A stretch of 64,000 nucleotides of DNA from Ignavibacteriota bacterium (lineage in GTDB: Bacteria; Bacteroidota; Ignavibacteria; UBA10030): assembly GCA_963727825.1 (NCBI GenBank), contig CAVSHO010000007.1:32001-96000 (forward strand). The letters are read 5' to 3'. Below the pieces are notes generated by a model, which worked only from the letters and a program-made list of their open reading frames with translations, searched no databases and was not told the DNA's origin. Both the position numbers and the translations under genes were made by a program. Of this stretch, positions 5,099 to 64,000 are shown piece after piece; the stretch's first letter is position 1, and each line of letters starts with the position of its first letter.

Positions 5099-6295
5099 AT
5101 GGCAATCGAAAAAAATGTAATTACCATTACCGAACTAACGCGGCAAATTAAATTCTCGCTGGAATCGAGTTTCCCACGTGTATGGGTTGAAGGTGAAATT
5201 TCCAATTTCAAACAGCATACTTCCGGGCATTTATATTTTACGTTAAAAGATGAAGGCGCTCAGATTTCTGCGCTTATGTGGCGGAGTCGCGTTGCTAATC
5301 TCACCTTTCAACCGGAAGATGGAATGAAGGTAATCGCCCGCGGTTCAATTACCGTGTATCCGCCGCGCGGGAATTATCAACTTGATGTAGAGCAGATTCA
5401 GCCACTTGGACTTGGAGAACTTCAGCTTGCGTTTGAGCGTCTAAAGCAAAAGTTAGATAGAGAAGGATTGTTCGATGCTGAACATAAGAAACCAATTCCA
5501 GAATTTCCCGAATGCATAGGTCTTGTCACGTCGGAAACAGGAGCGGCATTACAGGATATTCGAAGTGTGCTTTCGCGCCGCCATCCATCCGTTGAAGTAG
5601 TCCTTGCTCCGGTGCGCGTGCAAGGCACAGGTGCGGCAGAAGAAATTGCTGATGCGATCAAATATTTGAATCAATATGGCGGAATAGATGTGTTAATTAT
5701 TGGACGCGGCGGCGGTTCGCTGGAAGATTTGTGGGCGTTCAATGAAGAAATTGTGGCTCGTGCTATATATTCATCAAAAATTCCGACTATAAGCGCTGTT
5801 GGGCACGAAATTGATTTCAGCATTGCAGATTTTGTAGTGGATTTGCGTGCGCCAACACCCTCGGCGGCAGCAGAATTAGTTGTTCATGACCGTTCAGAAC
5901 TTCTTGAAGATATTGGCAACTTATGCTATACTATGCGCGGCGCACTCGATAATCAATTGTCTGGACTTCGTACGCAAACGACAAGTTTGGTGACGAGTTA
6001 TTCTTTCAATCGTCCCAGAGATTTGATCAGAGAATTCTCTCAGCGTGTGGATGAATTTGAACGCAGTATTGGAATTTCTTTTGCTCATGCCGCACAGACA
6101 GTGCATCAAAAATATAATTCGCTTCAGCTGCAATTGCAGGCGTTGAATCCGGGCGGCGTGCTCAAACGCGGTTATGCAATTGTGAGGAAGAAAGGGCGAA
6201 TTGTTTCGAGTGCGGATTTGCTTGATTATGGCGACGAAGCTGATATTCAATTTCACGATGGCACTATCGGTGTGAAAGTAGAAAAAGGACATTAA
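5099..6295 (+). CDS. xseA: Exodeoxyribonuclease VII large subunit
   Basis: VWVEGEISNF, GRGGGSLEDLWAFNEE, GHEID, APTPSAAAE. Confidence 0.97.
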   Translation: MAIEKNVITITELTRQIKFSLESSFPRVWVEGEISNFKQHTSGHLYFTLKDEGAQISALMWRSRVANLTFQPEDGMKVIARGSITVYPPRGNYQLDVEQIQPLGLGELQLAFERLKQKLDREGLFDAEHKKPIPEFPECIGLVTSETGAALQDIRSVLSRRHPSVEVVLAPVRVQGTGAAEEIADAIKYLNQYGGIDVLIIGRGGGSLEDLWAFNEEIVARAIYSSKIPTISAVGHEIDFSIADFVVDLRAPTPSAAAELVVHDRSELLEDIGNLCYTMRGALDNQLSGLRTQTTSLVTSYSFNRPRDLIREFSQRVDEFERSIGISFAHAAQTVHQKYNSLQLQLQALNPGGVLKRGYAIVRKKGRIVSSADLLDYGDEADIQFHDGTIGVKVEKGH

Positions 6296-6297
6296 TC

Positions 6298-6537
6298 ATG
6301 ACGGCAAAGAAAGCAGTGAAGAATTCATTAGAAAGTTCTCTTAAGCGACTTGAAGAAATTGTGGAAACGCTGGAGCGCGGTGATGCATCGTTAGATGATG
6401 CGATGAATTTATACGAAGAAGGTGTTCAGATTTCAAAACAGTGCGCTGAGAAACTGAAAGCCGCTGAATTGAAAATAAAAAAATTATCTAAAGAGATTGA
6501 TGGGCAATTTACAATAAATGAGTCTGATGAAGCATGA
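6298..6537 (+). CDS. xseB: Exodeoxyribonuclease VII small subunit
   Basis: LEEIVETLERGDASLDDAMNLYEEG; follows xseA. Confidence 0.95.
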   Translation: MTAKKAVKNSLESSLKRLEEIVETLERGDASLDDAMNLYEEGVQISKQCAEKLKAAELKIKKLSKEIDGQFTINESDEA

Positions 6538-8468
6538 GCGATTTTAATTTTCAATTTCTTGATTCTATTAATCTTCCGGAAGATTTGCGCAAATTGAATG
6601 TTCAAGAACTCAGAACAGTCTGTGCTGAGGTACGAGAGTACCTGATCGATTGTGTCTCGAAAACAGGCGGCCACCTTGGCGCCGGACTCGGCGCGGTGGA
6701 GCTTACCGTAGCACTTCATTATGTCTTTAATACACCGGAAGATAAACTTGTATGGGATGTCGGACATCAAGCATATCCGCATAAAATTTTAACCGGACGA
6801 AAAGACAGGATGGAAACAATCCGTACATTGGGCGGATTGAGCGGTTTTTTAAAGCGTTCAGAAAGCGAATACGATACATTTGGTGCTGGGCACGCAAGTA
6901 CGGCAATCTCGGCAGCGCTAGGTATTGCAGCGGCTCGTGATTTAGAAAAGAAGAATTTCAAAGTAGCAGCAATTGTCGGTGATGGCTCGATGACAGGCGG
7001 GATGGTGTACGAGGCGATGAACAACGCCGGCGTGCTGAAGAAAAATCTTATCGTCGTACTCAATGACAACCAAATGGGTTCGCTTTCATCGATAGAACCG
7101 AGTGTTTGGTCATTCCACAATTATTTTACAAAAATGCTGACACATCCTACATACAACAAATTCAAAGCGAATGTTTGGGATTTGACAGGTAAATTGGACT
7201 CGTTCGGCGATCGACTTCGTATGGTTGCGCAACAGATGGAAAGAGGAATTAAGGCGGTGGTAACACCGGGCATGCTTTTTGAGGCGCTTGGCTTTCGGTA
7301 CTTTGGTCCCATCAACGGGCATAATGTTGTAAAGCTGGTTGAGATATTCAGGCAAGTCAAGGATCTCAATGGTCCTATTCTCATTCATGTGATTACTGAA
7401 AAAGGAAAAGGATATGCGCCGGCGGAGTGCGAGGTAACGCGTTTGCACGGAGTGACGCCATTCGATAAAATTACCGGTATCTCTCCAAAGAAAAATGGTC
7501 AACCGCCGGCTTACACGGATATTTTCGGTAAAGCTCTGGTGGAAATCTGTAAACAGAATACAAAAGTTGTCGGTATTACTGCTGCAATGTCGGATGGAAC
7601 AGGCTTAATTCAACTCCACGAAGAAATGCCTGAGCGGTTTTTTGATGTTGGTATTGCCGAACAACATGCTGTAACCTTTGCGGCAGGCATAGCAACGGAG
7701 GGATATATTCCGGTTGTCGCAATCTACTCTACTTTTATGCAGCGTGCATTCGATCAAGTAGTGCACGACTGTGCGATTCAGAAATTGCATATCGTTTTAG
7801 CGATGGATCGCGGCGGATTAGTCGGTGCCGATGGTGCTACGCATCACGGTGCATTAGATTTTTCTTTCTTACGTTGCGTTCCCGGTATGGTTATAATGGC
7901 GCCGAAGGATGAACAGGAATTACGCGATATGCTCTTTACCGCTGTTGAGTATAAGCATGGACCTATTGCTCTTCGGTATCCGCGCGGTCATGCGCTTGGA
8001 GTTCCTGTGCGTGATGGATTTCAGAACCTGGAAATCGGCAAAGCCGAAACAGTACGCACCGGTAAAGACATTGCTATTCTTGCCATCGGAAATATGGTGC
8101 CAAATGCACTCAAGGCGGCAGAATTGTTAAGCAATGATGGCATTGAAGCAGAAGTCGTGAATATGAGGTTTGCGAAACCGATTGATGAAGAATTATTGAA
8201 GTCGTTAGCCCAGCGAATCAATACATTCCTTACCGTTGAAGAAAATGTTATTCGCGGCGGATTCGGGGCTGGAGTGTTGGAAGCGCTGAGCCATTGCGGT
8301 ATTTCAAATGTTTCTGTTAAGATACATGGATTGCCGGATGAATTCATAGAACAAGGTTCTCCTGACGAGTTACATCGGATTGTCAAGCTTGATGCTGATG
8401 GGATTGCTGAAGTGGTGAGAGAATATTTGAAAATCACACGCGAAAATTCCATATTACATACTACTTAA
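6534..8468 (+). CDS. dxs: 1-deoxy-D-xylulose-5-phosphate synthase
   Basis: GGHLGAGLG, WDVGHQAYPHK, GDGSMTGG, DVGIAEQHA. Confidence 0.98.
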   Translation: MSDFNFQFLDSINLPEDLRKLNVQELRTVCAEVREYLIDCVSKTGGHLGAGLGAVELTVALHYVFNTPEDKLVWDVGHQAYPHKILTGRKDRMETIRTLGGLSGFLKRSESEYDTFGAGHASTAISAALGIAAARDLEKKNFKVAAIVGDGSMTGGMVYEAMNNAGVLKKNLIVVLNDNQMGSLSSIEPSVWSFHNYFTKMLTHPTYNKFKANVWDLTGKLDSFGDRLRMVAQQMERGIKAVVTPGMLFEALGFRYFGPINGHNVVKLVEIFRQVKDLNGPILIHVITEKGKGYAPAECEVTRLHGVTPFDKITGISPKKNGQPPAYTDIFGKALVEICKQNTKVVGITAAMSDGTGLIQLHEEMPERFFDVGIAEQHAVTFAAGIATEGYIPVVAIYSTFMQRAFDQVVHDCAIQKLHIVLAMDRGGLVGADGATHHGALDFSFLRCVPGMVIMAPKDEQELRDMLFTAVEYKHGPIALRYPRGHALGVPVRDGFQNLEIGKAETVRTGKDIAILAIGNMVPNALKAAELLSNDGIEAEVVNMRFAKPIDEELLKSLAQRINTFLTVEENVIRGGFGAGVLEALSHCGISNVSVKIHGLPDEFIEQGSPDELHRIVKLDADGIAEVVREYLKITRENSILHTT

Positions 8469-8487
8469 ATATCATATCGGACATTGT

Positions 8488-9494
8488 ATGGAAAAAGCAC
8501 GTATTGGTATAGTTGGACTTGGGTCAATTGCTCAGACAATTCATCTCCCGATCCTCAATAAGTTTCCAGATGTCGAAATTGTAGCGGTTTGCGATCTCGA
8601 CCGGGCAAAGGCGCAATTTGTAGCAGATAAATTCAAAGTGCGACGTTACTATAACAACTTCGAGAAAATGCTGGCGATTGAACGAGATCTCGATGGAATA
8701 GATATTTGCACTCCGACGATATTGCATAAAGACATGGCGATTGCGGCATTGGCGGAAAAGAATAATGTTCTCATAGAAAAACCATTAGCACGAACCGCAA
8801 TAGAAGCAGAAGAAATTGCCGCTGCAGCAAAGAAATACCATCATACATTGATGGTTGGAATGAACAATCGCTTCCGCCCGGACGCTATGATTCTTAAAAG
8901 TTTTATAGAAGATAAAGCACTTGGTAAACTCTTTTATGCCAAGGCAGGATGGTTCAAAAAATTGAATGCGGAGAGTGCATGGCTAACTAAGAAAACACAA
9001 TCCGGCGGCGCGTAGTACTCGACCTTGGCATCGTCATGCTTGATCTTGCTTTCTGGATGATGGGATTTCCAGAGGTTCGAGAAGTTTCAGCAACAAATTA
9101 TTCGCATCATACAAAGGATGTAGAGGATTCATCGGTAGCGTTCCTCAAAATGAAAAACGGCTCCACATTAACTATTGAAGCAAGTTGGTCGTTTGAGTCC
9201 ACCTCAGACTTTTTCTACTGCGATTGTTTTGGTACGGATGGAAGCGGTTCACTCAATCCATTTCGAATCGTCAAACGTATGCACGATAATCTTGTCAATT
9301 TCGCACCTGCTTCTATTGAAACGCCGCAGAGTCTTTACCGTAAATCATACGAGAACGAGCTTAAACATTGGATTGGCTCATTGCGCGGATTGCACTCGGT
9401 TATTTCTAACGGCGATGAAGCTGTGCAACGAATGAAGATTATAGATTTAATTTACAAATCTGCTAAACGCGGCAAAGCGGTAGCAATAAAGTAG
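8488..9494 (+). CDS. Gfo/Idh/MocA oxidoreductase (frameshift near 9010)
   Basis: GIVGLG and EKP motifs; SGGA/GG junction continues into the 9036..9494 frame. Confidence 0.85.
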
Positions 9495-17813: not shown

Positions 17814-20614
17814 TTAATGCGCTTCTAACCAGTTCTTACCAATACCGAGATCAACTTCAACGGGAACAGACAGCGGGAGCGCTTGACGCATTTCTTTTTC
17901 TACTAGTTTTTTCATCTCCGCTTCTTCGGCTATTCTCATTTCAAAAACCAATTCATCATGAACTTGTAGAAGCATGGAACTATCTAGCTTCCGCTTAATT
18001 ATTTCTGCGTCAATATGAACCATTGCAAGTTTAATCATATCCGCTGCAGTTCCTTGAATCGGCATATTGATGGCTTGCCGTTCGGCATTCTGGCGGAAAT
18101 TTTGGTTGTTGCTGCGTATATCTGCAATGTACCGTCGACGGCCGAGGAGGGTGCTGACATATCCTTCTTTTCGCGCACTGGCAATCGTATCGCTGATATA
18201 TTGCTGAACTTTGGGGAAGCGTGCAAAGTAGCGCGCAATAATTTCTTTGGCTTCACTCTGATTAATTTCTAACCTGCTGGCAAGTCCATAAGCACCGATA
18301 CCGTACATGATGCCAAAATTCACTTCTTTTGCTTTCCGTCTCATCTCTCGTGTAACATTTTCTGAAGCGACACCGAATACTTTTGCTGCCGTCGTTACGT
18401 GAATGTCTTCTTTATTCCGAAATGCTTCAGTCATTCCTTCGTCACCGGAAATGTGTGCCATTACACGTAATTCGATTTGTGAATAGTCGGCAGAAAGAAT
18501 AAGCGATTCAGGATTACCAGCAATGAAAGCTTTCCTGATCGATCTGCCAATCTCCGTTCGGATGGGAATGTTCTGAATATTTGGATCGCTGCTGGATAAT
18601 CTTCCAGTTGTTGTGACAGTTTGATTGAACGATGTATGCACTCGCCCTGTACGAGCGTTGATCTAATTTCGGAAGAGCATCAATGTATGTTGATTTCAAT
18701 TTTGTCGATTGCCGGAATTCGAGCAGCATTTCAATAATAGGATGAGCGCCTTTTAACGCCTCAAGCACTGCCAACGTCGGTGGAAAAGCCAGATTTGGTT
18801 TTACGTACCGGAGTTAGTTTGAGTTTGTTAAAAAGTATTTCTGCAAGCTGTTGTGTAGAATTTATATTAAAAGAAATACCGGCGGTTAAATAAATTTCAC
18901 GTGTAAGATTTTCGAGCTGGTGCTCAAGTTCCTTCGACATACGGGCAAGAAAATCAACATCAATAGCAACTCCGATACGCTCCATTCTAGCAAGGGCAGA
19001 AACAAGCGGAAATTCCATTCCTTCGCAAAGTTCTATCATCCCGAGTTCGTTCAGTTTCTTTTGAAAATATTCATATAACCGAAATGTGATATCAGAATCT
19101 TCGCATGAATAATCAGAAAGACGCAGTAGGGAAATTTCGCGAATATGTTTCTGCTCTTTTCCAGTCCCGACTAAATCTGAAAAGGAGACGGTCTTATATG
19201 AAAGATATTCTGCGGCGATATCATCCATATTATGCTGACCATCAGCACGAACGATGTAGCTGGCGATCATCGGATCGAACAAAGTACCTTCGACATTGAT
19301 CCCGTATTGCGACAGGACCAGCATATCGTACTTAATGTTGTAGCCAATTTTTTTAATGCCGGGATTTCCGAGAATCGGCCTGAGTTTTTTACAGACCAAA
19401 TCTAAGGGTAGACCAATAGAAGTATTTGAGTGCTCTGAATTATCGCCAAATAGTCCGCCTTGACCTTGTTGTTTTTTTCCGGAAACTGCAACATAGAATG
19501 CTTCATGCGGTTTGAGTGCGAACGAAATTCCAACAAGTTCAGCATTCAGCGAATCAGTTGAAGTCGTTTCGGTATCGAAAACAAATTCTTCCGCAGATTT
19601 TAGCTTAACGCAGAGTGCCGTAAACTCGCGTTCGGTTGTGATGAGTTGGTATATATGTTTATCCGTTGTAATATTGGAAAGTGGTTCAGGCGGCGCAAAT
19701 TCAATATCAGTATCGATGCGAACTGGCGTATCCAGCGTTTCCATTTGAAGCTTGCTGAGGAGCGATCGGAATTCAAGCGCTCTAAATAATTCCATTAACT
19801 TAGCATTGTTTTTTTTCTCCGCTTTCAACGAATGGAAGTTAATAGGAAGCGGCACGTTGATATCAATAGTGACGAGTCGCTTAGAAAGAAACGCCAGCTC
19901 TTTGTTTGCTTCCAATTTAGCGCGAACGCCTTTCTGTGGAATATTATCAAGATGGCGATAGATTTCTTCAATACTGCCGTATTTCTGGATGAGCGGAATC
20001 GCAGTCTTTTCACCAATTCCTGGCACTCCCGGTACGTTATCGGATGCATCGCCGGTGAGCCCGAGCACTTCAATAACTTTATCCGGTGTAACGCCGAACT
20101 TTTGTTTCACTCCTTCGCGATCCACAATTTCAATATCTGCACTTTGCTTACCGGGCTTGAAGATTTTTATAGTATCGGATACAAGTTGCATGAAATCTTT
20201 ATCGGGTGAGACAAGAAAAGTGAGGGCACCCTCACGTTCAGCTTGTTTTGCTAATGTGCCGATTACATCGTCTGCTTCATAACCATCCATTTCTATAGCA
20301 GGAATATTATATGCGCGCACAACTTCTTTGATGATAGGAATTTGAGTGATCATATCGTCCGGCATTTTTTGCCTTGTAGCTTTATACTCTTTGTATTCTT
20401 TGTGCCGGAAATTTGGTTTGCCGGTGTCGAACACAACTGCAATATGATCAGGAAATTCCTGCGAGAGAATGCGATTCAGAAATGTGACAAATCCATACAC
20501 GGCACTTGTGTTTTCGCCCTTCGAGTTCATCAGCGGCTGACGAATAAATGCAAAATATGAGCGATACGCCAATGCCATTGCATCAATTAGATAGACTCGT
20601 TCAATTTTCGGCAT
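17814..20614 (-). CDS. polA: DNA polymerase I (two frameshifts near 18772 and 18662)
   Basis: 5'-3' exonuclease (EADD, DKD, GDASDNVPGV), 3'-5' exonuclease (FDTET), polymerase motifs TGRLSS, DYSQIELR, QVHDEL spread over three frames. Confidence 0.97.
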
Positions 20615-22412: not shown

Positions 22413-24067
22413 ATGAAAAAGTATCTTACAGAAAAAGTTAATGTTGTGCTCAAATCACTTTTGTACAGCGATCTTGCAAAGTTGACATTTGAAAAGCCGA
22501 AGGATGAGGCGCACGGCGATATCACAACTAACATAGCAATGTTGTTGGCAAAATTAGTAAAGAAAAATCCGCGCACGGTGGCGCAAGAAATTATTAACAA
22601 GCTTGAAGTGGAACAGAAGTATATATCGAAAATTGAAATTGCGGGGCCAGGTTTTATTAATTTTTATTTTTTAGACGAATTCTTCACTGCTCAAATTGAC
22701 GAGATTCTCAAACACGCAGAATCGTTCGGAAAAGTAAATATTGGCAATGGGAAGAAAACGCAAGTGGAGTATGTAAGTGCGAATCCGACCGGGCCGTTAA
22801 GTGTTGGTCATGGCCGCCAAGCGGCGATTGGAGATACGATAGCGAATCTGCTTGTGTGGACGGGACATGATGTTACCCGGGAATATTATTACAACAATGC
22901 GGGCCGCCAAATGCGTATGCTTGCAGAATCAACTTATGCGCGGTACCGGCAATTGTTCGATTTTTCATACGCATTTCCAGAAGATGGCTATCAAGGCGAC
23001 TATATCCGCGAAATTTCAGATGATTTAAAAAATGATCGCGGCGATTCCCTAGTTACAATGTCATTAGAAGATGCTTTAGCAGTGTGCAAAGAATTTGCAG
23101 AAAAGGAATTATTTCAAGCAATTAAAACAGTGCTTGCGCGAATGGGTGTTGTGCATGATGTTTTCTTTAATGAAGATTCGCTTTATAAGAGCGGAAAGAT
23201 TGAAGAAGTGATTGCAGAATTCCGTAATAAAGGACTCGCGTATGATCAGGATGGCGCAATCTGGTTGAAGACGAGTGCACTCGGGCTTGATCAGGATCGC
23301 GTTATTGTCAAGTCCACAGGCGAACCGACATATCGCTTGCCGGATATTGCGTACCATCGTGAAAAATTCCGGCGCGGCTTTGAACTTATTGTAGACGTCT
23401 TCGGCGCAGATCACATTGCTACGATTCCGGACGTCCTTGCTGGAATAAAAGCGCTTGGTTACGAACCTGAGAAAGTCAAGGTTGTAATTCACCAGTTCGT
23501 AACGCTTATGCGCGATGGCGAACAAGTTAAAATGTCCAAGCGGCTTGCGAATTTTGTAACACTTGATGAATTGATAGATGAAGTCGGTTCAGATGCAGTA
23601 CCGATTCTTTTTTCTGATGCGTTCTATCTCCAGCCATTTGGAATTCGATTTAAATCTTGCTAAAGAACAATCGGAAAAAAACCCGGTTTATTACTTGCAA
23701 TATGCTCATGCCCGAATTGCCAGCATACTTCGTTTTGCAGAAGAACAAGGGACGTTTAAGGCGTCAGATTCTTTTGCAGGCATCGATTATAGCTTGCTCA
23801 AAGGACCGACTGAAATCGCGCTGACAAAACTACTCCTTGATTTCCCTGAGACTATTGAATTTTGCGCAATGAGCTTTGAACCGCACAGACTTGACGACGT
23901 ATTTACAAGATGTTGCCACCGCATTTCATAAGTTCTATCACGAACACCGTATTGTAATCCCCGAATTGGATATTGCGAAAGCACGGCTTGCCCTCTGCCT
24001 TGCTACGAAAATGGTACTCGCAAATGGATGCAAAATCCTCGGGATTTCCGCTCCTGAGCGGATGTAA
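22413..24067 (+). CDS. argS: Arginine--tRNA ligase (two frameshifts near 23600 and 23893)
   Basis: [43 protein letters not shown]-terminal LGISAPERM. Confidence 0.96.
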
Positions 24068-24068
24068 G

Positions 24069-24179
24069 AGTAGTGTCTCAATTTAATGTTAATGGCGAGT
24101 GATGTCAGGAGTTTCCTCCTGACATCCAACAGGATCGGTCAGGACGTAAGTCCTGACCGCACGAAACTGAGACACTACC
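24069..24179. mobile_element. 111-bp MITE with terminal inverted repeats and 8-bp target duplication (IS256-like ends)
   Basis: TSD GATGTAAG at 24061-24068 and 24180-24187; ends AGTAGTGTCTCAATTT / AAACTGAGACACTACC; two internal hairpins. Confidence 0.8.
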
Positions 24180-24194
24180 GATGTAAGTAAGCCG

Positions 24195-24223
24195 TTGACA
24201 TTTGTAAATTATTTCTGTAGCTT
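24195..24223 (+). promoter_or_regulatory. Sigma70-type promoter of polysaccharide operon
   Basis: TTGACA-17bp-TAGCTT. Confidence 0.55.
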
Positions 24224-24412
24224 CTTATCAACAAAAATTAATAAAAGGTTATCGAATCCTCCCATTGTTACTGCGTTTGTAGTACTTCTAATGTCACATT
24301 GAACGTTTAAATTCGTCCCTGAAGAGACGAATTATATTTTCCTTTATTTAAAAGACCGTACTTAAATGCCGTGTTTTGAAATACGGGCATTCTTTTGTAG
24401 ATTTATGCGAGA

Positions 24413-59740: not shown

Positions 59741-61558
59741 ACGTCTTATAAAAGTCTTTATAGCGCCTTAGTTACTCTCGTTATTACGTTATTTGCATGC
59801 GCTTATGGCGATAATAATATTCTAACTAATCCAGGATTTGAAAGAGGAAAGAACGGCTGGTTCGATCGGACTTGTGCAATTGAACCTGTATCATCACCGG
59901 TTCACAGTGGTACTGGTGCTATGAAGGTCGTTAATAGACTAATGAATTGGCAGGGAATAAAACAATCGGTGTTCGGTAAATTGGTACAAGGGAAAATCTA
60001 TAAAGTTTCGGGGTGGGTAAGACTCGACAATGCAAAAAGCGATACGGTCGCTATATCTTTCGAACAGCAAGATGACAGCGGTACAAAGTATATTGGTGTA
60101 GCGCGGGCTGCCGCTTCGGATACTAACTGGACTTTGTTATCCGGCGAATTTACTTTAAAAGTTACAGGAACATTAGCAGTACTGGATGTGTACTTTGAAG
60201 GCCCTGTGTCAGGTGTTAACTTTTATGTTGATGATGCGAGTGTATTCGGTCCCGAGGTTGATGCTCCGAAGGTAATACCTGCTGATCCCAACGGAAAAGG
60301 TATAATAGATGTCAACACACGATATCAAAAAATTGAAGGCTTCGGTGCTTCAGGAGCTTGGCATACAAAAGAATTAGTAAATCATAAGAAGAAGGACGAG
60401 CTGTATAATTTGCTCTTCAAAGAACTTGGCCTCGATATATTCCGTATAGGCAATTATTACGATATAGATTCAGTTTCCTTCAATGAGACGATGGAAATAG
60501 CCAGATGCGGTGAATCCGCTCTAAAGAGAAATTTAAAGATTATGATATCATCGTGGTCGCCTCCGCCTTACATGAAAAGCAACGGAAAAATAATCGGTGG
60601 AACTCTGAAAAAGAAAAACAGAAAATTTGTCTATGATGAATTTGCGGAATGGTGGACTAAAAGCGTAATTGCCTGTACAAAAGCGGGTGTAAAGATAGAT
60701 TATATAAATATACAGAATGAGACTGACTATGAAGCTCCATGGAATTCATGTGTTTTTTCTCCTTCAGAAAATGTTGATACAAACATTGCCGCCTATAACA
60801 AAGCTTTCGAAGCAGTCTGGCAAAAAATGAACGCTTCAATGGGTTCGAACATGCCGAAAATGCTTGCTCCGGAAACATCCAGTTTAGGCAATGCTAAAAA
60901 GTACATAGAATGTTTAAGCAACCCATCCCATATCTATGCTTATGCTACACATCTCTACGATTGCAGTGGATGCGGTTCCGCTCCCGACAGGTTTATTCCA
61001 AGTATGGGCAGCTTCAATAATTTTGTCGTGCAGCATATCAACAAGCCGATATTTCAGACAGAGTTCGAAGACGGACCCAGCCTATGGACAAATGCAATCA
61101 GCGCAGCATTAGTGATACATAATGCTTTGACCGTGGAAAAAGTATCCGCTTATTTATACTGGGATTTATTCTGGGGTCCGGGAACAGCTCTGGTCAGCAT
61201 GAACGATTCAACCTCATATACCATTAAACCGGCATATTATACTTTCAAGCAATATTCAGCGTTTATAGATGCTGATTGGCAGCGCGTGGAAGCATCGACC
61301 GACAACACCGGTCTGAGGATTTCTGCATACATCAGTCCGGACAATAAAAAACTGACAGCAGTTATTATAAATACTACTGATAGCACGAATATTTCTTTTA
61401 ATCTATCTGTCAATAATTTCATTATTTCCAAAGGTGAAATTTACAGATCGAGCCAGAATGAAAACTGCGCCCTGATCGGTAGTTATAACAGGAAAACTCC
61501 GTTGGAAATACCTGCAAATTCCGTTACTACCTTATCGTTAACTTACAATAAGAAGTAG
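59741..61558 (+). CDS. Secreted CBM4/22 plus GH30 (xylanase-like) glycoside hydrolase
   Basis: Frame is open upstream of 59921 (signal peptide, 'NILTNPGFE'); CBM 'FYVDD'; GH30 motifs QKIEGFGASG, SSWSPP, IQNE, QTEF, AYLYW. Confidence 0.8.
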   Translation, partial: TSYKSLYSALVTLVITLFACAYGDNNILTNPGFERGKNGWFDRTCAIEPVSSPVHSGTGAMKVVNRLMNWQGIKQSVFGKLVQGKIYKVSGWVRLDNAKSDTVAISFEQQDDSGTKYIGVARAAASDTNWTLLSGEFTLKVTGTLAVLDVYFEGPVSGVNFYVDDASVFGPEVDAPKVIPADPNGKGIIDVNTRYQKIEGFGASGAWHTKELVNHKKKDELYNLLFKELGLDIFRIGNYYDIDSVSFNETMEIARCGESALKRNLKIMISSWSPPPYMKSNGKIIGGTLKKKNRKFVYDEFAEWWTKSVIACTKAGVKIDYINIQNETDYEAPWNSCVFSPSENVDTNIAAYNKAFEAVWQKMNASMGSNMPKMLAPETSSLGNAKKYIECLSNPSHIYAYATHLYDCSGCGSAPDRFIPSMGSFNNFVVQHINKPIFQTEFEDGPSLWTNAISAALVIHNALTVEKVSAYLYWDLFWGPGTALVSMNDSTSYTIKPAYYTFKQYSAFIDADWQRVEASTDNTGLRISAYISPDNKKLTAVIINTTDSTNISFNLSVNNFIISKGEIYRSSQNENCALIGSYNRKTPLEIPANSVTTLSLTYNKK

Positions 61559-61854
61559 ATAGTTAGTTAATGACCGTGAATAAAGTTCAGCAAAAGCAGT
61601 GATTACTTGCCATAACTTTACCGTTGCGATGCGAGACATTCATTCGTATATTTTAATATATGTCGTAAAAAAATATTACCTCGTAGAAGTTGGCGTTGAA
61701 AGTTCTCAGTATTAGAAGTTTTGTCTCTCTCGGCGATTTTATTCTGGTCGATATGAAAAGCTGTTCAATAAGGTGATCAGTGAAGTAATCAGTAAACACT
61801 AATCACTTGTGACACGATAGAAAAATAAGTGGCAAAAATAAAAGTATTTAACCT

Positions 61855-61970
61855 GGAGAGCTGGCAGAACGGTCCGTCGTCATCGCTGTGCGATGACGGA
61901 CGAGATCTCGTTCCGCTAAAAGCGGAACGGACTATTGCATCCCGACATAAAGTCGGGACGGACGTAAGCC
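61855..61970 (+). pseudogene. Interrupted partial copy of tRNA-Ser(TGA)
   Basis: GGAGAGCTGGCAGAACGG [59-nt insert] CTATTGCA [hairpin] CGTAAGCC are colinear pieces of the intact tRNA at 61996. Confidence 0.85.
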
Positions 61971-61995
61971 AATAAGTTGGAAAGAAATAGTATTT

Positions 61996-62078
61996 GGAGA
62001 GCTGGCAGAACGGCTATTGCACCAGTCTTGAAAACTGGCGGGCGTAAGCCCTTGGGGGTTCGAATCCCTCGCTCTCCG
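61996..62078 (+). tRNA. tRNA-Ser(TGA)
   Basis: GGAGAGC...GCTCTCC-G; CCAGT-CTTGAAA-ACTGG anticodon arm; long variable arm. Confidence 0.95.
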
Positions 62079-62144
62079 CAATTATAATTATCAAATTGCT
62101 TTTCGGGGTTCTTTTTACTTAATTAAATCAAACAAATTCAGCTC

Positions 62145-62227
62145 GGAGAGATGGCCGAGTGGTCCGTTCCGATCTGTGATCGGAACGAGATCTCGTCCCG
62201 ACAAAGTCGGGACGGACTGAAGGCGCA
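62145..62227 (+). pseudogene. Interrupted 5' fragment of tRNA-Ser(GCT)
   Basis: AATTCAGCTC-GGAGAGATGGCCGAGTGG [54-nt insert] CTGAAGGCGCA; same leader as the intact copy. Confidence 0.85.
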
Positions 62228-62230
62228 AAG

Positions 62231-62470
62231 ATGAAAGTTTTTGTTTATATCTTGTTCTCTGAAAAGTTTGGAAAGACTTATGTTGGTCAGACTTCTGATA
62301 TTCAGAAAAGAATTACCATGCATAATGCTGGGCGAGTTAAGTCTACAAAAAGATATGCTCCTTGGAAGTTAATTCATTCAGAAGAATTTGATTCAAGGGG
62401 TGAAGCTATGGCAAAGGAAGAATGGTATAAATCTTCTTCTGGAAGGAAAAGTATACAAAAGTTTATTTAA
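62231..62470 (+). CDS. Small GIY-YIG nuclease (UPF0213/SLX1-like) no. 1
   Basis: FVYIL...TYVGQTSDIQKR...HNAG..KSTK.Y.PW...EAMAKE...KS..GR. Confidence 0.93.
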   Translation: MKVFVYILFSEKFGKTYVGQTSDIQKRITMHNAGRVKSTKRYAPWKLIHSEEFDSRGEAMAKEEWYKSSSGRKSIQKFI

Positions 62471-62502
62471 TTAATTTTTGAAATTGTAACATAATTCAGC
62501 TC

Positions 62503-62591
62503 GGAGAGATGGCCGAGTGGCTGAAGGCACAGGTTTGCTAAACCTGCATAGTGGGTAACTGCTATCGAGGGTTCGAATCCCTCTCTCTCCG
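62503..62591 (+). tRNA. tRNA-Ser(GCT)
   Basis: GGAGAGA...TCTCTCC-G; CAGGT-TTGCTAA-ACCTG anticodon arm; long variable arm. Confidence 0.95.
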
Positions 62592-62599
62592 CTTGTGAG

Positions 62600-62923
62600 A
62601 TGAGTTATTTCGTTTATCTGCTTTGGTCGATTCGATCAAAACGCACATATGTCGGACAAACGGATGATATCGATAATCGCCTAAAACGACATAATGCAGG
62701 ATATATTCGATCCACTAAAGCATATCGTCCTTGGGTATTGGTCCATATAGAATTGTATTCAACTCGTTCAGAAGCGATGAAGAGAGAAATATGGTTGAAG
62801 AGCCCGACAGGTAGGAAATCGATAGTTAAGATTATTGGAAAATGGCAAGAGAAAGGTTTGTCCGTTCCGTTGTCAGAGACAACGGAACGAGATCGCGATC
62901 CCGCAGGAGCGGGATCGGACTAA
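62600..62923 (+). CDS. Small GIY-YIG nuclease no. 2
   Basis: YFVYLL...TYVGQTDDIDNRLKRHNAG..RSTKAYRPW...EAMKRE..LKS..GR. Confidence 0.93.
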   Translation: MSYFVYLLWSIRSKRTYVGQTDDIDNRLKRHNAGYIRSTKAYRPWVLVHIELYSTRSEAMKREIWLKSPTGRKSIVKIIGKWQEKGLSVPLSETTERDRDPAGAGSD

Positions 62924-62973
62924 ACCTGCATAGTGGGTAACTGCTATCGAGGGTTCGAATCCCTCTCTCTCCG
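62854..62973 (+). pseudogene. 3' part of tRNA-Ser(GCT) interrupted in the anticodon
   Basis: AGGTTTG [59-nt insert] CTAAACCTGCATAG...CTCTCTCCG, identical to the intact tRNA. Confidence 0.85.
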
Positions 62974-62981
62974 CTGGTAAG

Positions 62982-63059
62982 ATGAGTTATTTTGTATATC
63001 TGCTAAGGTCGATACGATCAAAGCAAACATATGTTGGACTAAACCTGCATAGTGGGTAA
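62982..63059 (+). pseudogene. Truncated third GIY-YIG gene fused to a tRNA 3' fragment
   Basis: MSYFVYLLRSIRSKQTYVG, then runs into CTAAACCTG...TAA. Confidence 0.8.
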
Positions 63060-63102
63060 CTGCTATCGAGGGTTCTCCCGGCAAGTCGGGACTCTCTCTC
63101 TG
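63039..63102 (+). pseudogene. Third 3' tRNA-Ser(GCT) fragment, T-loop replaced by a hairpin
   Basis: CTAAACCTG...GAGGGTTC [TCCCGGCAAGTCGGGA] CTCTCTCTCTG. Confidence 0.8.
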
Positions 63103-63163
63103 CAAAACTTTATTCCATGAAAATATGGAATATAGTTTTACTGGCAAGTCCTGAAAGATGGAT

Positions 63164-63194
63164 AAGCGTCTCATATCTTCGGGACGCTTTTTTT
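63164..63194 (+). terminator. Rho-independent terminator after the tRNA/GIY-YIG array
   Basis: AAGCGTCTC-loop-GGGACGCTT followed by T-run. Confidence 0.6.
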
Positions 63195-63216
63195 GTATTA
63201 GAACAGGTTATCGGAA

Positions 63217-64000
63217 ATGGGAAATCAAATTCGCGTTCGTTTTGCACCAAGCCCTACAGGATATTTACACGTAGGCGGGTTACGCACAGCATTATATAAT
63301 TATCTATTTGCAAAACACTTTGGCGGTAAATTCATTCTTCGCATTGAAGATACTGATCAATCGCGCAAAGTTGAAGGTGCGGTTGAAAATTTGATCGAAA
63401 CTCTGAAATGGTCTGGAATTGAATATGATGAAGGTCCTGACCGTGATGGTGGTCGTGGTCCGTATGTGCAATCTCAACGTTTAGAATTGTACCGCAAGTA
63501 TGCACAAGAACTCATCAGCAAGGATAAAGCGTATCATTGTTTCTGTACATCTGAACGATTGCAGGAAGTTCGTAAAAAACAATTGGCCGCAAAACTTTCT
63601 CCTTCGTACGACCGCCATTGCCGAAATGTATCTCGAGAAGAAGCGGAACGCCGAGTTGCAGCAGGTGAGCAAAATGTCATCCGCATGAAAATACCACTCG
63701 AAGGTGAATTATCATTTGATGATGTTATTCGCGGCAAAGTAACCATTTCTCATAAGATGATAGACGATCAAGTGCTTATCAAGTCAGATGGATTCCCGAC
63801 ATATCACCTTGCAGTTGTTGTCGATGATCATTTAATGGGAATTACACACGTCATTCGCGGCGAAGAGTGGCTGTCGAGTGTCCCGAAACATATTCTGATA
63901 TATAACTATTTCGGATGGGAATTGCCGGTGCTTGCGCATCTTCCATTGTTATTGAATCCTGATAAATCTAAACTCAGCAAGCGTCAAGGAGATGTAGCGG
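63217..64000 (+). CDS. gltX: Glutamate--tRNA ligase (partial, runs off window; not in ORF track)
   Basis: [32 protein letters not shown]...LRIEDTD...THVIRGEEW...KLSKR. Confidence 0.97.

What the first reader, a model, noticed from the sequence alone, without database searches (positions are those of the whole stretch)
61873..62919. Covarying double-hairpin element inserted three times exactly at G^CT inside tRNA sequence
Three inserts share the architecture TC-hairpin1-AGATCK-hairpin2-GA. A (61873-61931): TC CGTCGTCATCGC TGT GCGATGACGGACG AGATCT CGTTCCGCT AAA AGCGGAACG GA. B (62163-62216): TC CGTTCCGATC TGT GATCGGAACG AGATCT CGTCCCGAC AAA GTCGGGACG GA. C (62861-62919): TC CGTTCCGTTGTC AGA GACAACGGAACG AGATCG CGATCCCGC AGGA GCGGGATCG GA. 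Stem sequences differ but pairing is kept, so structure appears to be selected. Removing each insert restores the tRNA sequence with no target duplication. The sites are D-loop CGG^CTA, D-loop TGG^CTG and anticodon TTG^CTA, always between G and CT and always in a tRNA loop. Inference: a structure-defined insertion element placed at single-stranded or cruciform loops, plausibly by or with the adjacent GIY-YIG enzymes, analogous to REP/RAYT pairs but with a different enzyme class.
Basis: partly seen in the sequence, partly recalled or inferred. Interest (0 to 1): 0.85.

Follow-up and report, generated by a model that had tools for sequence, protein, structure and literature searches.

The report
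Mobile double-hairpins in tRNA gene remnants
Three 54-59-base palindromic double-hairpin DNA elements sit precisely inside leftover pieces of tRNA genes next to tiny nuclease genes, and relatives show that the same element family jumps without a footprint into other fold-prone DNA, so it looks like an undescribed small mobile element of soil and peat bacteria.

Summary
All three inserts exist at the stated coordinates and fold as two strong hairpins. Removing each restores contiguous tRNA sequence with no duplication. They lie in partial tRNA copies beside intact tRNA-Ser(TGA) and tRNA-Ser(GCT), not in working genes.

The genome holds five copies. The other two lie in tRNA-Asn fragments, also at G^CT.

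The family is widespread in Ignavibacteriales. In one congener, 23 near-identical copies sit at one position (AAG^CTG) of integron attC sites, 45 matches to the uninterrupted attC site remain, and no GIY-YIG gene was seen in the one array examined. That shows precise, footprint-free mobility.

In other genera, at least 12 of 15 hairpin-type copies lie in tRNA fragments, most often in the D loop after GG.

About 80-residue SLX1/UPF0213-like GIY-YIG genes abut many tRNA genes as small, often tandem cassettes. All 17 cassettes inspected carry a hairpin-interrupted tRNA fragment on the far side.

My reading: the double hairpin is the cis element of tRNA-homing cassettes, with or without the nuclease gene, and it also transposes alone. 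The mobilising enzyme is not identified. GIY-YIG is plausible but not shown. I found no published description.

The parts
61855..61872 (+). 5' fragment (positions 1-18) of tRNA-Ser(TGA), contiguous with the native upstream flank
   Evidence: BLAST of the tRNAs against the genome, 18/18 identical. The upstream flank matches the empty locus of G006.
61873..61931 (.). Double-hairpin element A, in the D loop at CGG^CTA
   Evidence: -23.1 kcal/mol, z -6.9.
61932..61939 (+). 8 bases continuing the tRNA-Ser(TGA) D arm after insert A
   Evidence: Read against the intact gene.
61940..61962 (.). Single GC-rich hairpin standing where the anticodon arm should be
   Evidence: -7.5 kcal/mol, z -3.5. It is followed by 8 bases of the variable arm (61963-61970) and a 25-base spacer.
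61996..62079 (+). Intact tRNA-Ser(TGA)
   Evidence: ARAGORN; Rfam tRNA 54.1 bits.
62145..62162 (+). 5' fragment (positions 1-18) of tRNA-Ser(GCT), contiguous with the native spacer
62163..62216 (.). Double-hairpin element B, in the D loop at TGG^CTG
   Evidence: -21.5 kcal/mol, z -5.6.
62217..62224 (+). 8 bases continuing the tRNA-Ser(GCT) D arm after insert B
62231..62470 (+). GIY-YIG gene 1 (79 aa), catalytic domain only
   Evidence: ORF list; Pfam PF01541 E 4.3e-17. A metatranscriptome-run contig covers 62152-62349.
62503..62592 (+). Intact tRNA-Ser(GCT). Its first 18 bases and about 13 upstream bases belong to the inserted block.
   Evidence: comparison with G006 and G010.
62600..62923 (+). 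GIY-YIG gene 2. The domain spans 62600-62860, and the open frame runs on through element C to a stop in the tRNA fragment (107 aa).
   Evidence: PF01541 E 1.6e-17. Orthologues 62-77% identical in G006, G007, G008 and G010.
62854..62860 (+). 7 bases matching the tRNA-Ser(GCT) anticodon stem and loop just before the insertion point (about 12 bases in G006)
62861..62919 (.). Double-hairpin element C, within the anticodon at TTG^CTA
   Evidence: -26.1 kcal/mol, z -8.7. Orthologous elements sit at the same site in G006 (three copies), G007, G008, G010 and G021.
62920..62974 (+). 3' part (positions 36-90) of tRNA-Ser(GCT), 55/55 identical to the intact gene
62982..63038 (+). Truncated start (19 codons) of a third GIY-YIG gene copy
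   Evidence: tblastn, 89% over 19 residues.
63039..63075 (+). Second 3' fragment of tRNA-Ser(GCT), 37 bases
63076..63092 (.). Single hairpin replacing the T loop of the outermost, displaced fragment. It is followed by 11 bases of decayed acceptor strand.
   Evidence: The fold was run on 63077-63093, one base off these coordinates, and gave -3.6 kcal/mol, z -2.2.
63164..63189 (+). The only terminator-like site, closing the whole tRNA and cassette cluster

Best explanation
The inserts are members of a family of 51-63-base quasi-palindromic double-hairpin (DH) elements. The architecture is TC, a hairpin with a conserved CGTYC/GRACG foot, a GATC-centred linker, a second hairpin with the same foot, then GA.

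Shown:
- The family is mobile.
- It enters between a G and a C with no duplication.
- Its main home across Ignavibacteriales is partial copies of tRNA genes lying beside the intact gene.
- In one genus it has also invaded integron attC sites.

Inferred:
- In tRNA loci the DH is the cis-acting end of small tRNA-homing blocks. A block consists of the DH, a few bases of tRNA, an optional 80-residue SLX1/UPF0213-like GIY-YIG gene or only a short spacer, and a replacement copy of the tRNA part that the insertion displaces.
- The block enters by recombination within the tRNA sequence, by Campbell-type crossover or by break repair using the tRNA pieces as portable homology arms. The gene stays intact, and the displaced native piece remains next to the DH.
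- Misaligned repair of the same kind makes the frequent tandem arrays.
- The nuclease gene rides on tRNA transcription.
- ORF-less units are non-autonomous derivatives.
- The DH splits the redundant tRNA copy. It is kept by selection on the element, either as the nuclease's structured substrate or as protection of the spare copy from cutting and from deletion.

The enzyme that cuts and joins the DH has not been identified. My leading candidate is the structure-specific-type GIY-YIG nuclease acting in cis or in trans.
For: 1. Real, structured, non-random. See the folds, the pair counts and the 44 of 54 pattern matches with double stems against 0 of 1080 shuffles.

2. Own genome. Only 5 copies were found, all in tRNA fragments at G^CT (A, B, C and two identical copies in tandem 123-base tRNA-Asn units).

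3. Mobility in G010.
- 23 copies sit at one position of attC sites, against 45 matches to the uninterrupted attC pattern.
- The copies are 98.2% identical pairwise, while their attC flanks are 63-79% identical.
- All 23 align in one orientation.
- The repeats are attC sites of integrons with an integron integrase scoring 448-455 bits beside each array.

4. tRNA preference across genera.
- At least 12 of 15 hairpin-type copies in G164, G122, G130, G134 and G086 lie in tRNA fragments next to an intact tRNA.
- The same Ser D-loop site recurs in G057, G119, G164, G122 and G134.
- The same Ser(TGA) unit as A is present in G086, yet absent from congeners G006 and G010.

5. Blocks are insertions.
- G006 and G010 have the two tRNA-Ser genes with no A or B block.
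- A metagenome contig joins 62594 to 63133, skipping the 3' cassettes.
- The fragment keeps the native upstream flank, while the intact gene is preceded by foreign sequence.
- In G019 a unit next to tRNA-Pro(CGG) carries the T-stem of tRNA-Pro(GGG).

6. GIY-YIG link.
- 11 of 13 GIY-YIG hits in the genome lie within about 140 bases of a tRNA gene or fragment.
- 11 of 11 best loci in relatives lie beside a tRNA.
- 17 of 17 cassettes inspected have at least one GC-rich hairpin in the far-side tRNA fragment.
- Catalytic residues are invariant among 7 paralogues that are 38-54% identical.
- The nearest solved relatives are UPF0213 proteins (E 2e-15) and SLX1, a structure-specific nuclease (2.5e-6). 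I-TevI scores only 2e-3.

7. Tandem arrays are common: two units each at Leu(CAG) and Asn, and at least 14 units in G002. This matches what the phage GIY-YIG enzyme SegB does at tRNA loci (PMC13096335, passages read).

8. The DH at the Ser(GCT) anticodon site keeps perfect stems in cassettes whose proteins have diverged to 53-77% identity.
Against: - No direct evidence ties any enzyme to the DH.
- DH copies spread in attC arrays where no GIY-YIG gene was seen. This rests on one array, with 9 ORFs scanned against Pfam.
- G002 has 21 GIY-YIG matches but no pattern match.
- Pattern counts do not correlate with GIY-YIG counts (rho 0.16, n=14).
- Only 4 of 15 copies in other genera have a GIY-YIG gene within the roughly 350-base flanks fetched. 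ORF-less units are therefore the majority and could be the primary form.
- The intact tRNA beside each cassette is identical to the tRNA of genomes that lack the cassette. A nuclease that cuts the tRNA gene would also cut its own host's copy, so the usual immunity logic of homing endonucleases does not hold simply.
- The proteins lack any DNA-binding domain.
- The attC target lies in a stem rather than a loop.
- Other cassettes use other hairpins, such as a single palindrome at Leu(CAG) and 22-base mini double hairpins in T loops. The AGATCK type is therefore one of several.
Confidence: 0.45

Rival explanations
1. The double hairpin is an independent REP/BIME-like or minimal IS200/IS605-type palindromic element. 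It is moved by an unrelated single-strand enzyme, such as a Y1/HUH RAYT-like transposase. It simply accumulates wherever fold-prone DNA is dispensable: tRNA remnants left by GIY-YIG cassettes and integrases, attC sites, and the apex of other palindromes. On this view the neighbourhood to GIY-YIG genes is incidental, because both like tRNA genes.
For: - Footprint-free, orientation-fixed insertion at a short motif resembles single-strand transposition.
- Two hairpins with the same foot on one strand resemble the left and right end hairpins of IS200/IS605 elements, or a BIME pair. The comparison with those families is recalled, except for PMC3333891, of which I read passages.
- Y1 transposase genes are present: 9 PF01797 matches in this genome, and matches in 76 of 86 genomes of the family.
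- attC copies occur without a GIY-YIG gene in the array examined.
- Some copies sit at the centre of other palindromes.
- One Y1 gene (C9:119964) is flanked by hairpins that also begin with TCC and end with GGA.
Against: - The flanks of the 9 Y1 genes in this genome hold no DH-type hairpin.
- Pattern counts do not follow Y1 counts (rho 0.14, n=45).
- G007, G015, G130 and G168 have pattern matches but no Y1 match at E 1e-5 or below.
- E. coli TnpA-REP cuts at C^T (PMC3333891), whereas the junction here is G^C.
- 17 of 17 GIY-YIG cassettes carry hairpins in the fragment, and stems stay perfect in anciently diverged cassettes. That points to more than passive accumulation.
Confidence: 0.28
2. The hairpins mark the cleavage site of a tRNA-gene-cutting GIY-YIG homing nuclease. 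They are kept because they destroy that site, and interrupt homology, in the spare tRNA copy. This protects the cassette from self-cutting and from deletion between the direct repeats. The DH is merely the commonest available disruptor and is not a substrate of the nuclease.
For: - The hairpin always lies inside the duplicated tRNA segment, leaving only 7-12 bases on the gene-proximal side.
- Different cassettes use unrelated hairpins at equivalent places.
- Tandem arrays fit misaligned repair after a cut at that position.
- Phage SegB cuts in tRNA regions and drives tandem amplification by homologous recombination (PMC13096335 passages; PMC2330249 abstract).
Against: - The intact tRNA next to the cassette stays cleavable.
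- The 55-base uninterrupted repeat after element C is not below any recombination threshold.
- ORF-less units with a DH are common.
- The proteins resemble SLX1/UPF0213 more than sequence-specific homing enzymes.
Confidence: 0.17
3. The hairpins are not mobile. They are locally evolved RNA or DNA structures, such as terminators, mRNA end protectors or processing signals for the tRNA-embedded nuclease messages, and they look alike by convergence.
For: - The cassettes appear to lack their own terminators and to lie within a tRNA transcription unit. Only one terminator-like site was found, at 63164-63189.
- Contigs of an RNA library cover unit A and cassette B. This is weak, because RNA libraries can contain DNA.
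- The stems vary while pairing is kept.
Against: - 23 near-identical copies sit at one attC position, 45 matches to the uninterrupted site remain, and the copies are far more alike than their hosts.
- The ends, foot and linker are conserved across families of the order.
- The same element occurs in D, anticodon and T loops and on both sides of genes.
Confidence: 0.05

Closest known systems
REP/BIME elements and REPINs with RAYT (TnpA-REP) transposases
   Same: - Short GC-rich palindromes, often as pairs of hairpins with a short linker.
- Structure kept while sequence varies.
- Action on single-stranded folded DNA with no target duplication.
- A conserved foot next to the stem.
   Different: - No GTAG foot.
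- The junction is G^C rather than C^T (PMC3333891, passages read).
- Low copy number: 5 in this genome.
- The copies are not extragenic spacers between converging genes; they lie inside tRNA remnants and attC sites.
- No Y1 gene flanked by these hairpins was found.
Free-standing GIY-YIG homing endonuclease genes at tRNA loci (phage T4/T6 SegB)
   Same: - A GIY-YIG gene sits next to tRNA genes.
- Presence or absence varies between relatives.
- Tandem amplification of units made of a tRNA piece and the nuclease gene, through short homologies (PMC13096335 passages; PMC2330249 abstract).
   Different: - The host is a bacterial chromosome, not a phage.
- The protein is only the roughly 80-residue catalytic domain, nearest to UPF0213 and SLX1. 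It has no DNA-binding module.
- The block carries a replacement tRNA part.
- The spare tRNA piece carries a palindromic insert.
Mitochondrial GC clusters and double-hairpin elements of fungal mitochondrial DNA
   Same: Short G+C-rich elements that fold into two stem-loops, vary in sequence but not in fold, are scattered as mobile inserts, and in some cases lie near mobile endonuclease genes. This description is recalled. I saw only titles and abstract openings of papers that cite these elements.
   Different: - Organellar rather than bacterial.
- Those elements sit in AT-rich spacers, introns and variable rRNA regions, not in tRNA loops or attC sites.
- No shared sequence was tested here.
Elements that seek integron attC sites (IS1111-attC insertion sequences, group IIC-attC introns)
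   Same: Site-specific entry into the folded attC recombination site. This genome itself has 5 IS110-family genes inside its cassette array. The named classes are recalled.
   Different: - The DH is 51-63 bases long with no coding capacity or ribozyme.
- It enters the 5' arm at AAG^CTG.
- G010, which holds the 23 filled attC sites, has no PF01548 match.
Integrative elements that target tRNA genes and carry a replacement tRNA end
   Same: Insertion within a tRNA gene that is healed by a copy of the displaced part. This leaves a direct repeat of tRNA sequence at the far end.
   Different: - Units are 100-400 bases long, not kilobases.
- The block holds no integrase.
- Both 5' and 3' versions occur.
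- Crossover points lie in the D, anticodon or T loop and are marked by a palindromic insert.

Membership tests
REP/BIME with RAYT (REPtron) | Imperfect palindromes with a conserved foot motif, often paired in inverse orientation | tested here: met
   Two hairpins with a conserved CGTYC/GRACG foot and a GATC-centred linker. The foot motif differs from GTAG.
REP/BIME with RAYT (REPtron) | A Y1 (HUH) transposase gene flanked by the same palindromes | tested here: not met
   9 PF01797 matches in the genome. None has DH-type hairpins within 600 bases. One gene is flanked by a different two-copy hairpin.
REP/BIME with RAYT (REPtron) | High copy number in extragenic spacers | tested here: not met
   5 copies in this genome, all inside tRNA fragments. 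The highest count seen is 23 or more, in the attC sites of G010.
Free-standing GIY-YIG homing endonuclease cassette | Intact GIY-YIG catalytic domain | tested here: met
   PF01541 E about 1e-17. Tyr, Tyr-x-Gly, Arg, His-Asn and Glu are invariant in 7 paralogues.
Free-standing GIY-YIG homing endonuclease cassette | Separate DNA-binding module giving a long specific target | tested here: not met
   The proteins are 79-87 residues and consist of the domain only. The group I intron endonuclease model scores 24.7 bits against a cut-off of 56. The nearest solved relatives are UPF0213 proteins and SLX1.
Free-standing GIY-YIG homing endonuclease cassette | Presence or absence polymorphism at a conserved site among relatives | tested here: met
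   G006 and G010 lack blocks A and B. A metagenome contig lacks the 3' cassettes.
Free-standing GIY-YIG homing endonuclease cassette | The enzyme cuts the empty allele near the insertion site | not testable with these tools
   This needs purified protein and cleavage mapping.
MITE (miniature inverted-repeat transposable element of a DDE transposon) | Target-site duplication flanking terminal inverted repeats | tested here: not met
   No duplicated bases in the tRNA contexts. Comparison of filled and empty attC sites also shows no duplication.
Integron attC site | R and L boxes (RYYYAAC ... GTTRRRY) pairing across a variable centre, beside cassette genes and an integron integrase | tested here: not met
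   The genomes' true attC sites are repeats of about 200 bases with CCTAAC and GTTAGG ends, next to TIGR02249 integrases. The DH lacks these boxes and is an insert within such sites.
IS200/IS605-type minimal element (palindrome-associated transposable element) | Subterminal hairpins on one strand, no duplication, strand-specific insertion next to a short motif | tested here: inconclusive
   The hairpins, the absence of duplication and the fixed orientation in 23 of 23 attC copies fit. No matching full-length parent element was found, and counts do not track Y1 genes.

The most novel reading that the evidence does not exclude
A minimal SLX1-like GIY-YIG nuclease and a 55-base two-fold-symmetric double hairpin together form a new class of structure-guided mobile element. 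The hairpin is both the recognition element and the transposing unit. tRNA halves serve as portable homology arms, so the element can home into the same tRNA gene of any bacterium without disrupting it. The same chemistry lets the bare hairpin invade other folded DNA, such as integron attC sites and 5S rRNA gene remnants.
Probability: 0.2. Interest if true: 0.85.

Novelty: new variant of a known kind. Interest (0 to 1): 0.66.

Why it matters
Function of the stand-alone GIY-YIG proteins. If the reading is right, the large and uncharacterised family of about 80-residue proteins (UPF0213, SLX1-like) gets a concrete and testable role: nucleases of tiny selfish cassettes that live on tRNA genes. 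Substrates are defined by the sequences found here.

Footprint-free insertion. A 55-base DNA enters a G^C step with no duplication. Filled and empty sites are available side by side, 23 against 45 in one genome. That is a clean system for finding the responsible enzyme.

Annotation. tRNA fragments, over-long GIY-YIG reading frames that run into hairpins, and broken assemblies at tandem units all follow from this architecture.

Integron biology. Insertion into attC sites may affect cassette recombination in the integrons of environmental bacteria.

Tried and rejected
- MAFFT alignments of whole inserts (A1, A2) were structurally poor. I therefore built no covariance model. I used an IUPAC pattern with two gaps, and for pair counts an ungapped alignment of 21-base hairpins.
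- The pattern also matches by chance in GC-richer genomes. Of 38 places in five genomes, I judged 23 by eye to be non-hairpin and dropped them. The tally of 121 of 201 genomes therefore overstates the family's spread.
- Rfam found nothing at the inserts at E up to 1.
With a single protein it returned 5 distant loci and no close ones. Only the Pelagibacteraceae locus has a tRNA beside the gene.
- Complex prediction for a homodimer of the GIY-YIG protein gave no verdict (score 0.01). It counts neither for nor against.
- IS110-family transposase as the mover: 5 copies lie in this genome's integron, but none in G010, which has the filled attC sites. Rejected as the general mover.
- Integron integrase as the mover: the insertion point is not at the R box, and the DH lacks R and L boxes. 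Judged unlikely, but not tested further.
- Tracking by enzyme counts gave no correlation for either Y1 or GIY-YIG genes. The counts are crude, and related genomes are not independent.
- Sequencing runs hold at most 0.27 of the sampled words, and all are contigs. They cannot show RNA ends or circular forms. Parts without cover mean nothing.
- Literature: seven searches found no paper describing tRNA-adjacent minimal GIY-YIG cassettes with hairpin-interrupted tRNA fragments, or these double hairpins in bacteria.
- Supplementary files were not consulted.
- I considered tRNA introns and rejected them. Only truncated copies carry the inserts, and all 45 predicted tRNAs of the genome are uninterrupted.
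- An assembly artefact is also rejected. The same architecture occurs in many independent assemblies and in metagenome contigs.
Full report
**What is in the window**

The sequence from 61000 to 64000 holds two intact tRNA genes, tRNA-Ser(TGA) at 61996-62079 and tRNA-Ser(GCT) at 62503-62592 (ARAGORN; Rfam 54.1 and 60.7 bits). Around them lie pieces of the same two genes (BLAST).

- A (61873-61931) splits an 18 + 8-base copy of the start of tRNA-Ser(TGA).
- B (62163-62216) splits an 18 + 8-base copy of the start of tRNA-Ser(GCT).
- C (62861-62919) lies between 7 bases of anticodon stem and loop and a perfect 55-base copy of the 3' part of tRNA-Ser(GCT).

In each case, taking the insert out gives uninterrupted tRNA sequence with nothing duplicated.

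Each insert folds into two strong hairpins as single-stranded DNA (-21.5 to -26.1 kcal/mol, z -5.6 to -8.7, 0 of 200 shuffles as good).

Two further, single hairpins stand in the same pieces. One is at 61940-61962, in place of the anticodon arm. The other is at 63076-63092, in place of the T loop.

Between the pieces lie two GIY-YIG genes (62231-62470 and 62600-62860, PF01541 E about 1e-17) and the first 19 codons of a third. One terminator-like site at 63164-63189 closes the cluster.

**The element is two-fold symmetric**

Every copy matches the same pattern on both strands: TC, a hairpin with a CGTYC/GRACG foot, a linker centred on GATC, a second hairpin with the same foot, then GA. The flanking G and C extend the symmetry.

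On 20 distinct 21-base hairpins of the family, 98.3% of cells pair, 7 of 9 pairs change on both sides, and 0 of 500 shuffles reach the covariation score. Those hairpins had been chosen with a pairing filter.

A pattern that asks for sequence only gives a fairer figure. Of its 54 matches in fetched stretches of three congeners, 44 have perfect stems of at least 7 pairs in both halves, against 0 of 1080 shuffled halves.

Neighbouring tandem cassettes in G006 carry different first hairpins but the same second one. Much of the variation is therefore exchange of whole hairpin modules.

**The rest of the genome**

The genome has 14 contigs, 3.12 Mb and 45 tRNA genes. It holds only two more copies. 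They are identical, sit at GCGG^CTGTT in tandem 123-base units of the first 30 bases of tRNA-Asn, and lie upstream of the intact gene with no open reading frame between. So 5 of 5 copies are in tRNA fragments.

The phenomenon is wider than this element.
- Many tRNA genes have partial copies beside them.
- tblastn finds 13 GIY-YIG loci, of which 11 lie within about 140 bases of a tRNA gene or fragment.
- In all 10 cassettes of this genome, the tRNA fragment on the far side of the gene carries at least one GC-rich hairpin, either in a loop or in place of an arm. Examples are a plain palindrome at tRNA-Leu(CAG), 22-base mini double hairpins in T loops of tRNA-Pro and tRNA-Ala copies, and TCCCG...CGGGA hairpins in place of anticodon arms.
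- Perfect GC-rich hairpins are about six times enriched within 600 bases of tRNA genes: 48 of 439, against 1.7% of the genome.

**Relatives**

Homologues of the window's GIY-YIG protein are named as coming from Ignavibacteriales metagenome-assembled genomes. 30 of 31 related genomes have such genes. The 11 best loci all lie beside a tRNA gene, and the 7 of them that I read through all have hairpin-bearing tRNA fragments.

The Ser(GCT) 3' cassette recurs in G006 (three copies), G007, G008, G010 and G021. In each it carries a double hairpin at the same anticodon site, although the proteins are only 53-77% identical.

G006 and G010 have both tRNA-Ser genes with no block A or B, which gives the empty sites. 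There the spacer that precedes tRNA-Ser(GCT) matches the sequence that precedes fragment B in the window. In the window, by contrast, the intact gene is preceded by cassette sequence. The inserted block therefore runs from the double hairpin to a replacement copy of the first 18 bases of the tRNA.

The 3' cassettes are the mirror image. The block starts with a replacement 3' part and ends with the double hairpin, next to the displaced native 3' part.

A metagenome contig at least 90% alike joins 62594 to 63133, with 31 other letters in between. That is a relative without the 3' cassettes.

G002 has an array of at least 14 units of about 299 bases. Each unit is a GIY-YIG gene plus a tRNA-Pro 3' piece whose anticodon arm is replaced by a hairpin.

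**Proof of mobility, away from tRNA and away from GIY-YIG**

The pattern scan of 201 genomes of the order matched in 121. In GC-richer genomes many of these matches are chance hits.

In the congener G010 there are 34 matches. 23 of them are near-identical copies that all sit between AAG and CTG of a larger repeat. That repeat is the attC site of chromosomal integrons:
- About 200 bases long, with CCTAAC and GTTAGG ends.
- Arranged in arrays between unrelated small genes on the same strand.
- Next to an integron integrase (TIGR02249, 442-455 bits against a cut-off of 265) in G000, G006, G009 and G010.

The uninterrupted site pattern (up to 2 mismatches) matches abundantly: 45 times in G010, 44 in G009, 43 in G006 and 21 in G000. 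Comparing filled and empty sites shows exact insertion with no duplication.

The 23 copies are 98.2% identical to each other, while their attC hosts are 63-79% identical. All 23 align in one orientation.

The array examined holds no GIY-YIG gene among 9 ORFs scanned against Pfam. This genome's own attC sites carry none of the elements.

**Other genera**

In five further genomes of three genera, the pattern has 38 places. I took the 15 that look like double hairpins and dropped 23 by eye. At least 12 of the 15 lie in recognisable tRNA fragments next to an intact tRNA:
- Most often in the D loop after GG (Ser, Leu, Met).
- Also in the anticodon loop (Asp) and the T loop (Thr).

Only 4 of the 15 have a GIY-YIG gene within the roughly 350-base flanks. 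G086 has the same ORF-less tRNA-Ser(TGA) D-loop unit as block A, which G006 and G010 lack.

In G019, a tandem ORF-less unit beside tRNA-Pro(CGG) carries the T stem of tRNA-Pro(GGG), so it came from another tRNA locus.

These copies are not independent. Because the element is symmetric, several of the G^CA cases read G^CT on the other strand. A few copies sit at the centre of other palindromes.

**Which enzyme**

The GIY-YIG proteins keep the catalytic Tyr, Tyr-x-Gly, Arg, His-Asn and Glu in 7 paralogues that are 38-54% identical. They consist of the domain alone. Their nearest solved relatives are two UPF0213 proteins of unknown function (E 2e-15 and 5e-14), then SLX1, a structure-specific nuclease (2.5e-6). 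I-TevI scores only 2e-3.

Dunin-Horkawicz and colleagues place such stand-alone prokaryotic domains in an Slx1-like cluster. In the passages I read they do not mention tRNA gene neighbourhood (PMC1564403).

A structure-specific nuclease next to a two-fold symmetric hairpin element is suggestive, but nothing here shows that it acts on the element.

Y1 transposase genes are also present: 9 matches in this genome, and 76 of 86 genomes of the family. Their flanks lack these hairpins. Pattern counts follow neither Y1 counts (rho 0.14, n=45) nor GIY-YIG counts (rho 0.16, n=14).

IS110-family genes sit in this genome's integron but are missing from G010.

**How I think it works**

Shown:
- The double hairpin is a mobile, footprint-free insert.
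- The tRNA-side blocks are insertions that carry a replacement tRNA part and leave the native part displaced.
- Blocks occur with and without the nuclease gene, often in tandem.
- They are patchy among relatives.

Inferred:
- Blocks enter by recombination within the tRNA sequence, with the tRNA pieces serving as portable homology arms. A single crossover of a circular unit, or break repair from a donor, gives exactly the observed order in both the 5' and the 3' versions.
- Misaligned repair gives the tandem arrays, as shown for phage SegB at tRNA loci (PMC13096335, passages read).
- The nuclease message rides on tRNA transcription. Contigs of an RNA library cover block A and cassette B, which is a weak hint.
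- The hairpin is kept in the spare tRNA copy by selection on the element.

Open:
- Is the hairpin the nuclease's substrate, a shield of the spare copy, or an independent passenger?
- The intact tRNA next to a cassette is identical to the tRNA of cassette-free relatives. This is hard to square with a simple homing-endonuclease immunity model.

**Comparison with what is known**

The elements work like REP/BIME or minimal IS200-type palindromic elements, and like mitochondrial GC clusters and double-hairpin elements. The cassettes work like free-standing GIY-YIG homing genes at phage tRNA loci, and like integrative elements that heal the tRNA they enter.

Membership fails for each family on at least one defining feature:
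- No hairpin-flanked Y1 gene.
- No DNA-binding module in the nuclease.
- No target duplication.
- No attC boxes.

Seven full-text searches found no description of this arrangement. Integrons in Ignavibacteriae are already on record (PMC9024848, passage read).

I rate the finding as a new variant of known kinds. There is a real chance that the nuclease and the hairpin together form a new kind of structure-guided element.

Noticed in passing
G000:C11:1046-30834 (outside the window): A sedentary chromosomal integron. An integron integrase (TIGR02249, 447.9 bits) lies at C11:29893-30834, next to an array of at least 17 attC repeats of about 200 bases. Comparable arrays occur in G006, G009 and G010.
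   Followed up: partly
G000:C11:4917-5384, 6094-6507, 8556-8969, 19901-20314, 23932-24345: Five IS110-family transposase genes (PF01548) lie inside the integron cassette array. At least two attC copies (at 8274 and 19622) are interrupted near their 3' end just upstream of such a gene. This looks like an attC-seeking insertion sequence.
   Followed up: partly
G000:C10:259975-260090 (locus L114, about 1176-1291): Downstream of the 5S rRNA gene lies a copy of the last roughly 40 bases of 5S rRNA. It is interrupted by a double hairpin and a single hairpin of the TCCCG...CGGGA type, with no GIY-YIG gene nearby. The phenomenon is therefore not confined to tRNA genes.
   Followed up: partly
G000:C1:209700-209880: The intact tRNA-Leu(TAG) lies between the two halves of a 12-base inverted repeat of the TCCCGC...GCGGGA type. 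A D-arm fragment of the same tRNA sits just upstream, as if the gene sat in the loop of a hairpin module.
   Followed up: no
G000:C1:104686, C8:109386, C9:49937, C9:74441, C9:858557, C12:61856: A six-copy composite repeat of three or more nested GC-rich hairpins. It shares one hairpin core (about 17 bases) with the second hairpin of element B. Other TCC...GGA hairpin pairs are scattered in intergenic DNA.
   Followed up: no
G002:C2:365051-369127 (locus L022): A tandem array of at least 14 units of about 299 bases runs to the contig end. Each unit is a GIY-YIG gene plus a tRNA-Pro 3' piece whose anticodon arm is replaced by a 17-base hairpin.
   Followed up: partly
L106 (Pelagibacteraceae single-cell assembly), 1123-1428: A GIY-YIG homologue (53% identical over 34 residues) starts 3 bases after tRNA-Glu. 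No tRNA fragment was detected beyond it. The tRNA adjacency of minimal GIY-YIG genes may extend well outside Ignavibacteriales.
   Followed up: no
G000:C9:119832-120542: A Y1-transposase-like gene (199-residue frame) is flanked on both sides by a two-copy hairpin that also begins with TCC and ends with GGA. This is a small REPtron-like or IS200-like unit unrelated in sequence to the double hairpins.
   Followed up: partly
window 61854-62013, 62152-62349 and 62358-62515: Contigs from a peat metatranscriptome run, and from permafrost, peat and soil DNA runs, cover block A and cassette B with few differences. Close relatives carrying the same blocks are therefore widespread in such habitats, and the blocks may be transcribed.
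   Followed up: partly
window 62600-62923: The open frame of the second GIY-YIG gene runs through element C and ends at a stop supplied by the tRNA fragment. Database relatives are annotated at 105-115 residues for the same reason, so the annotated C-terminal tails are probably not real protein.
   Followed up: partly
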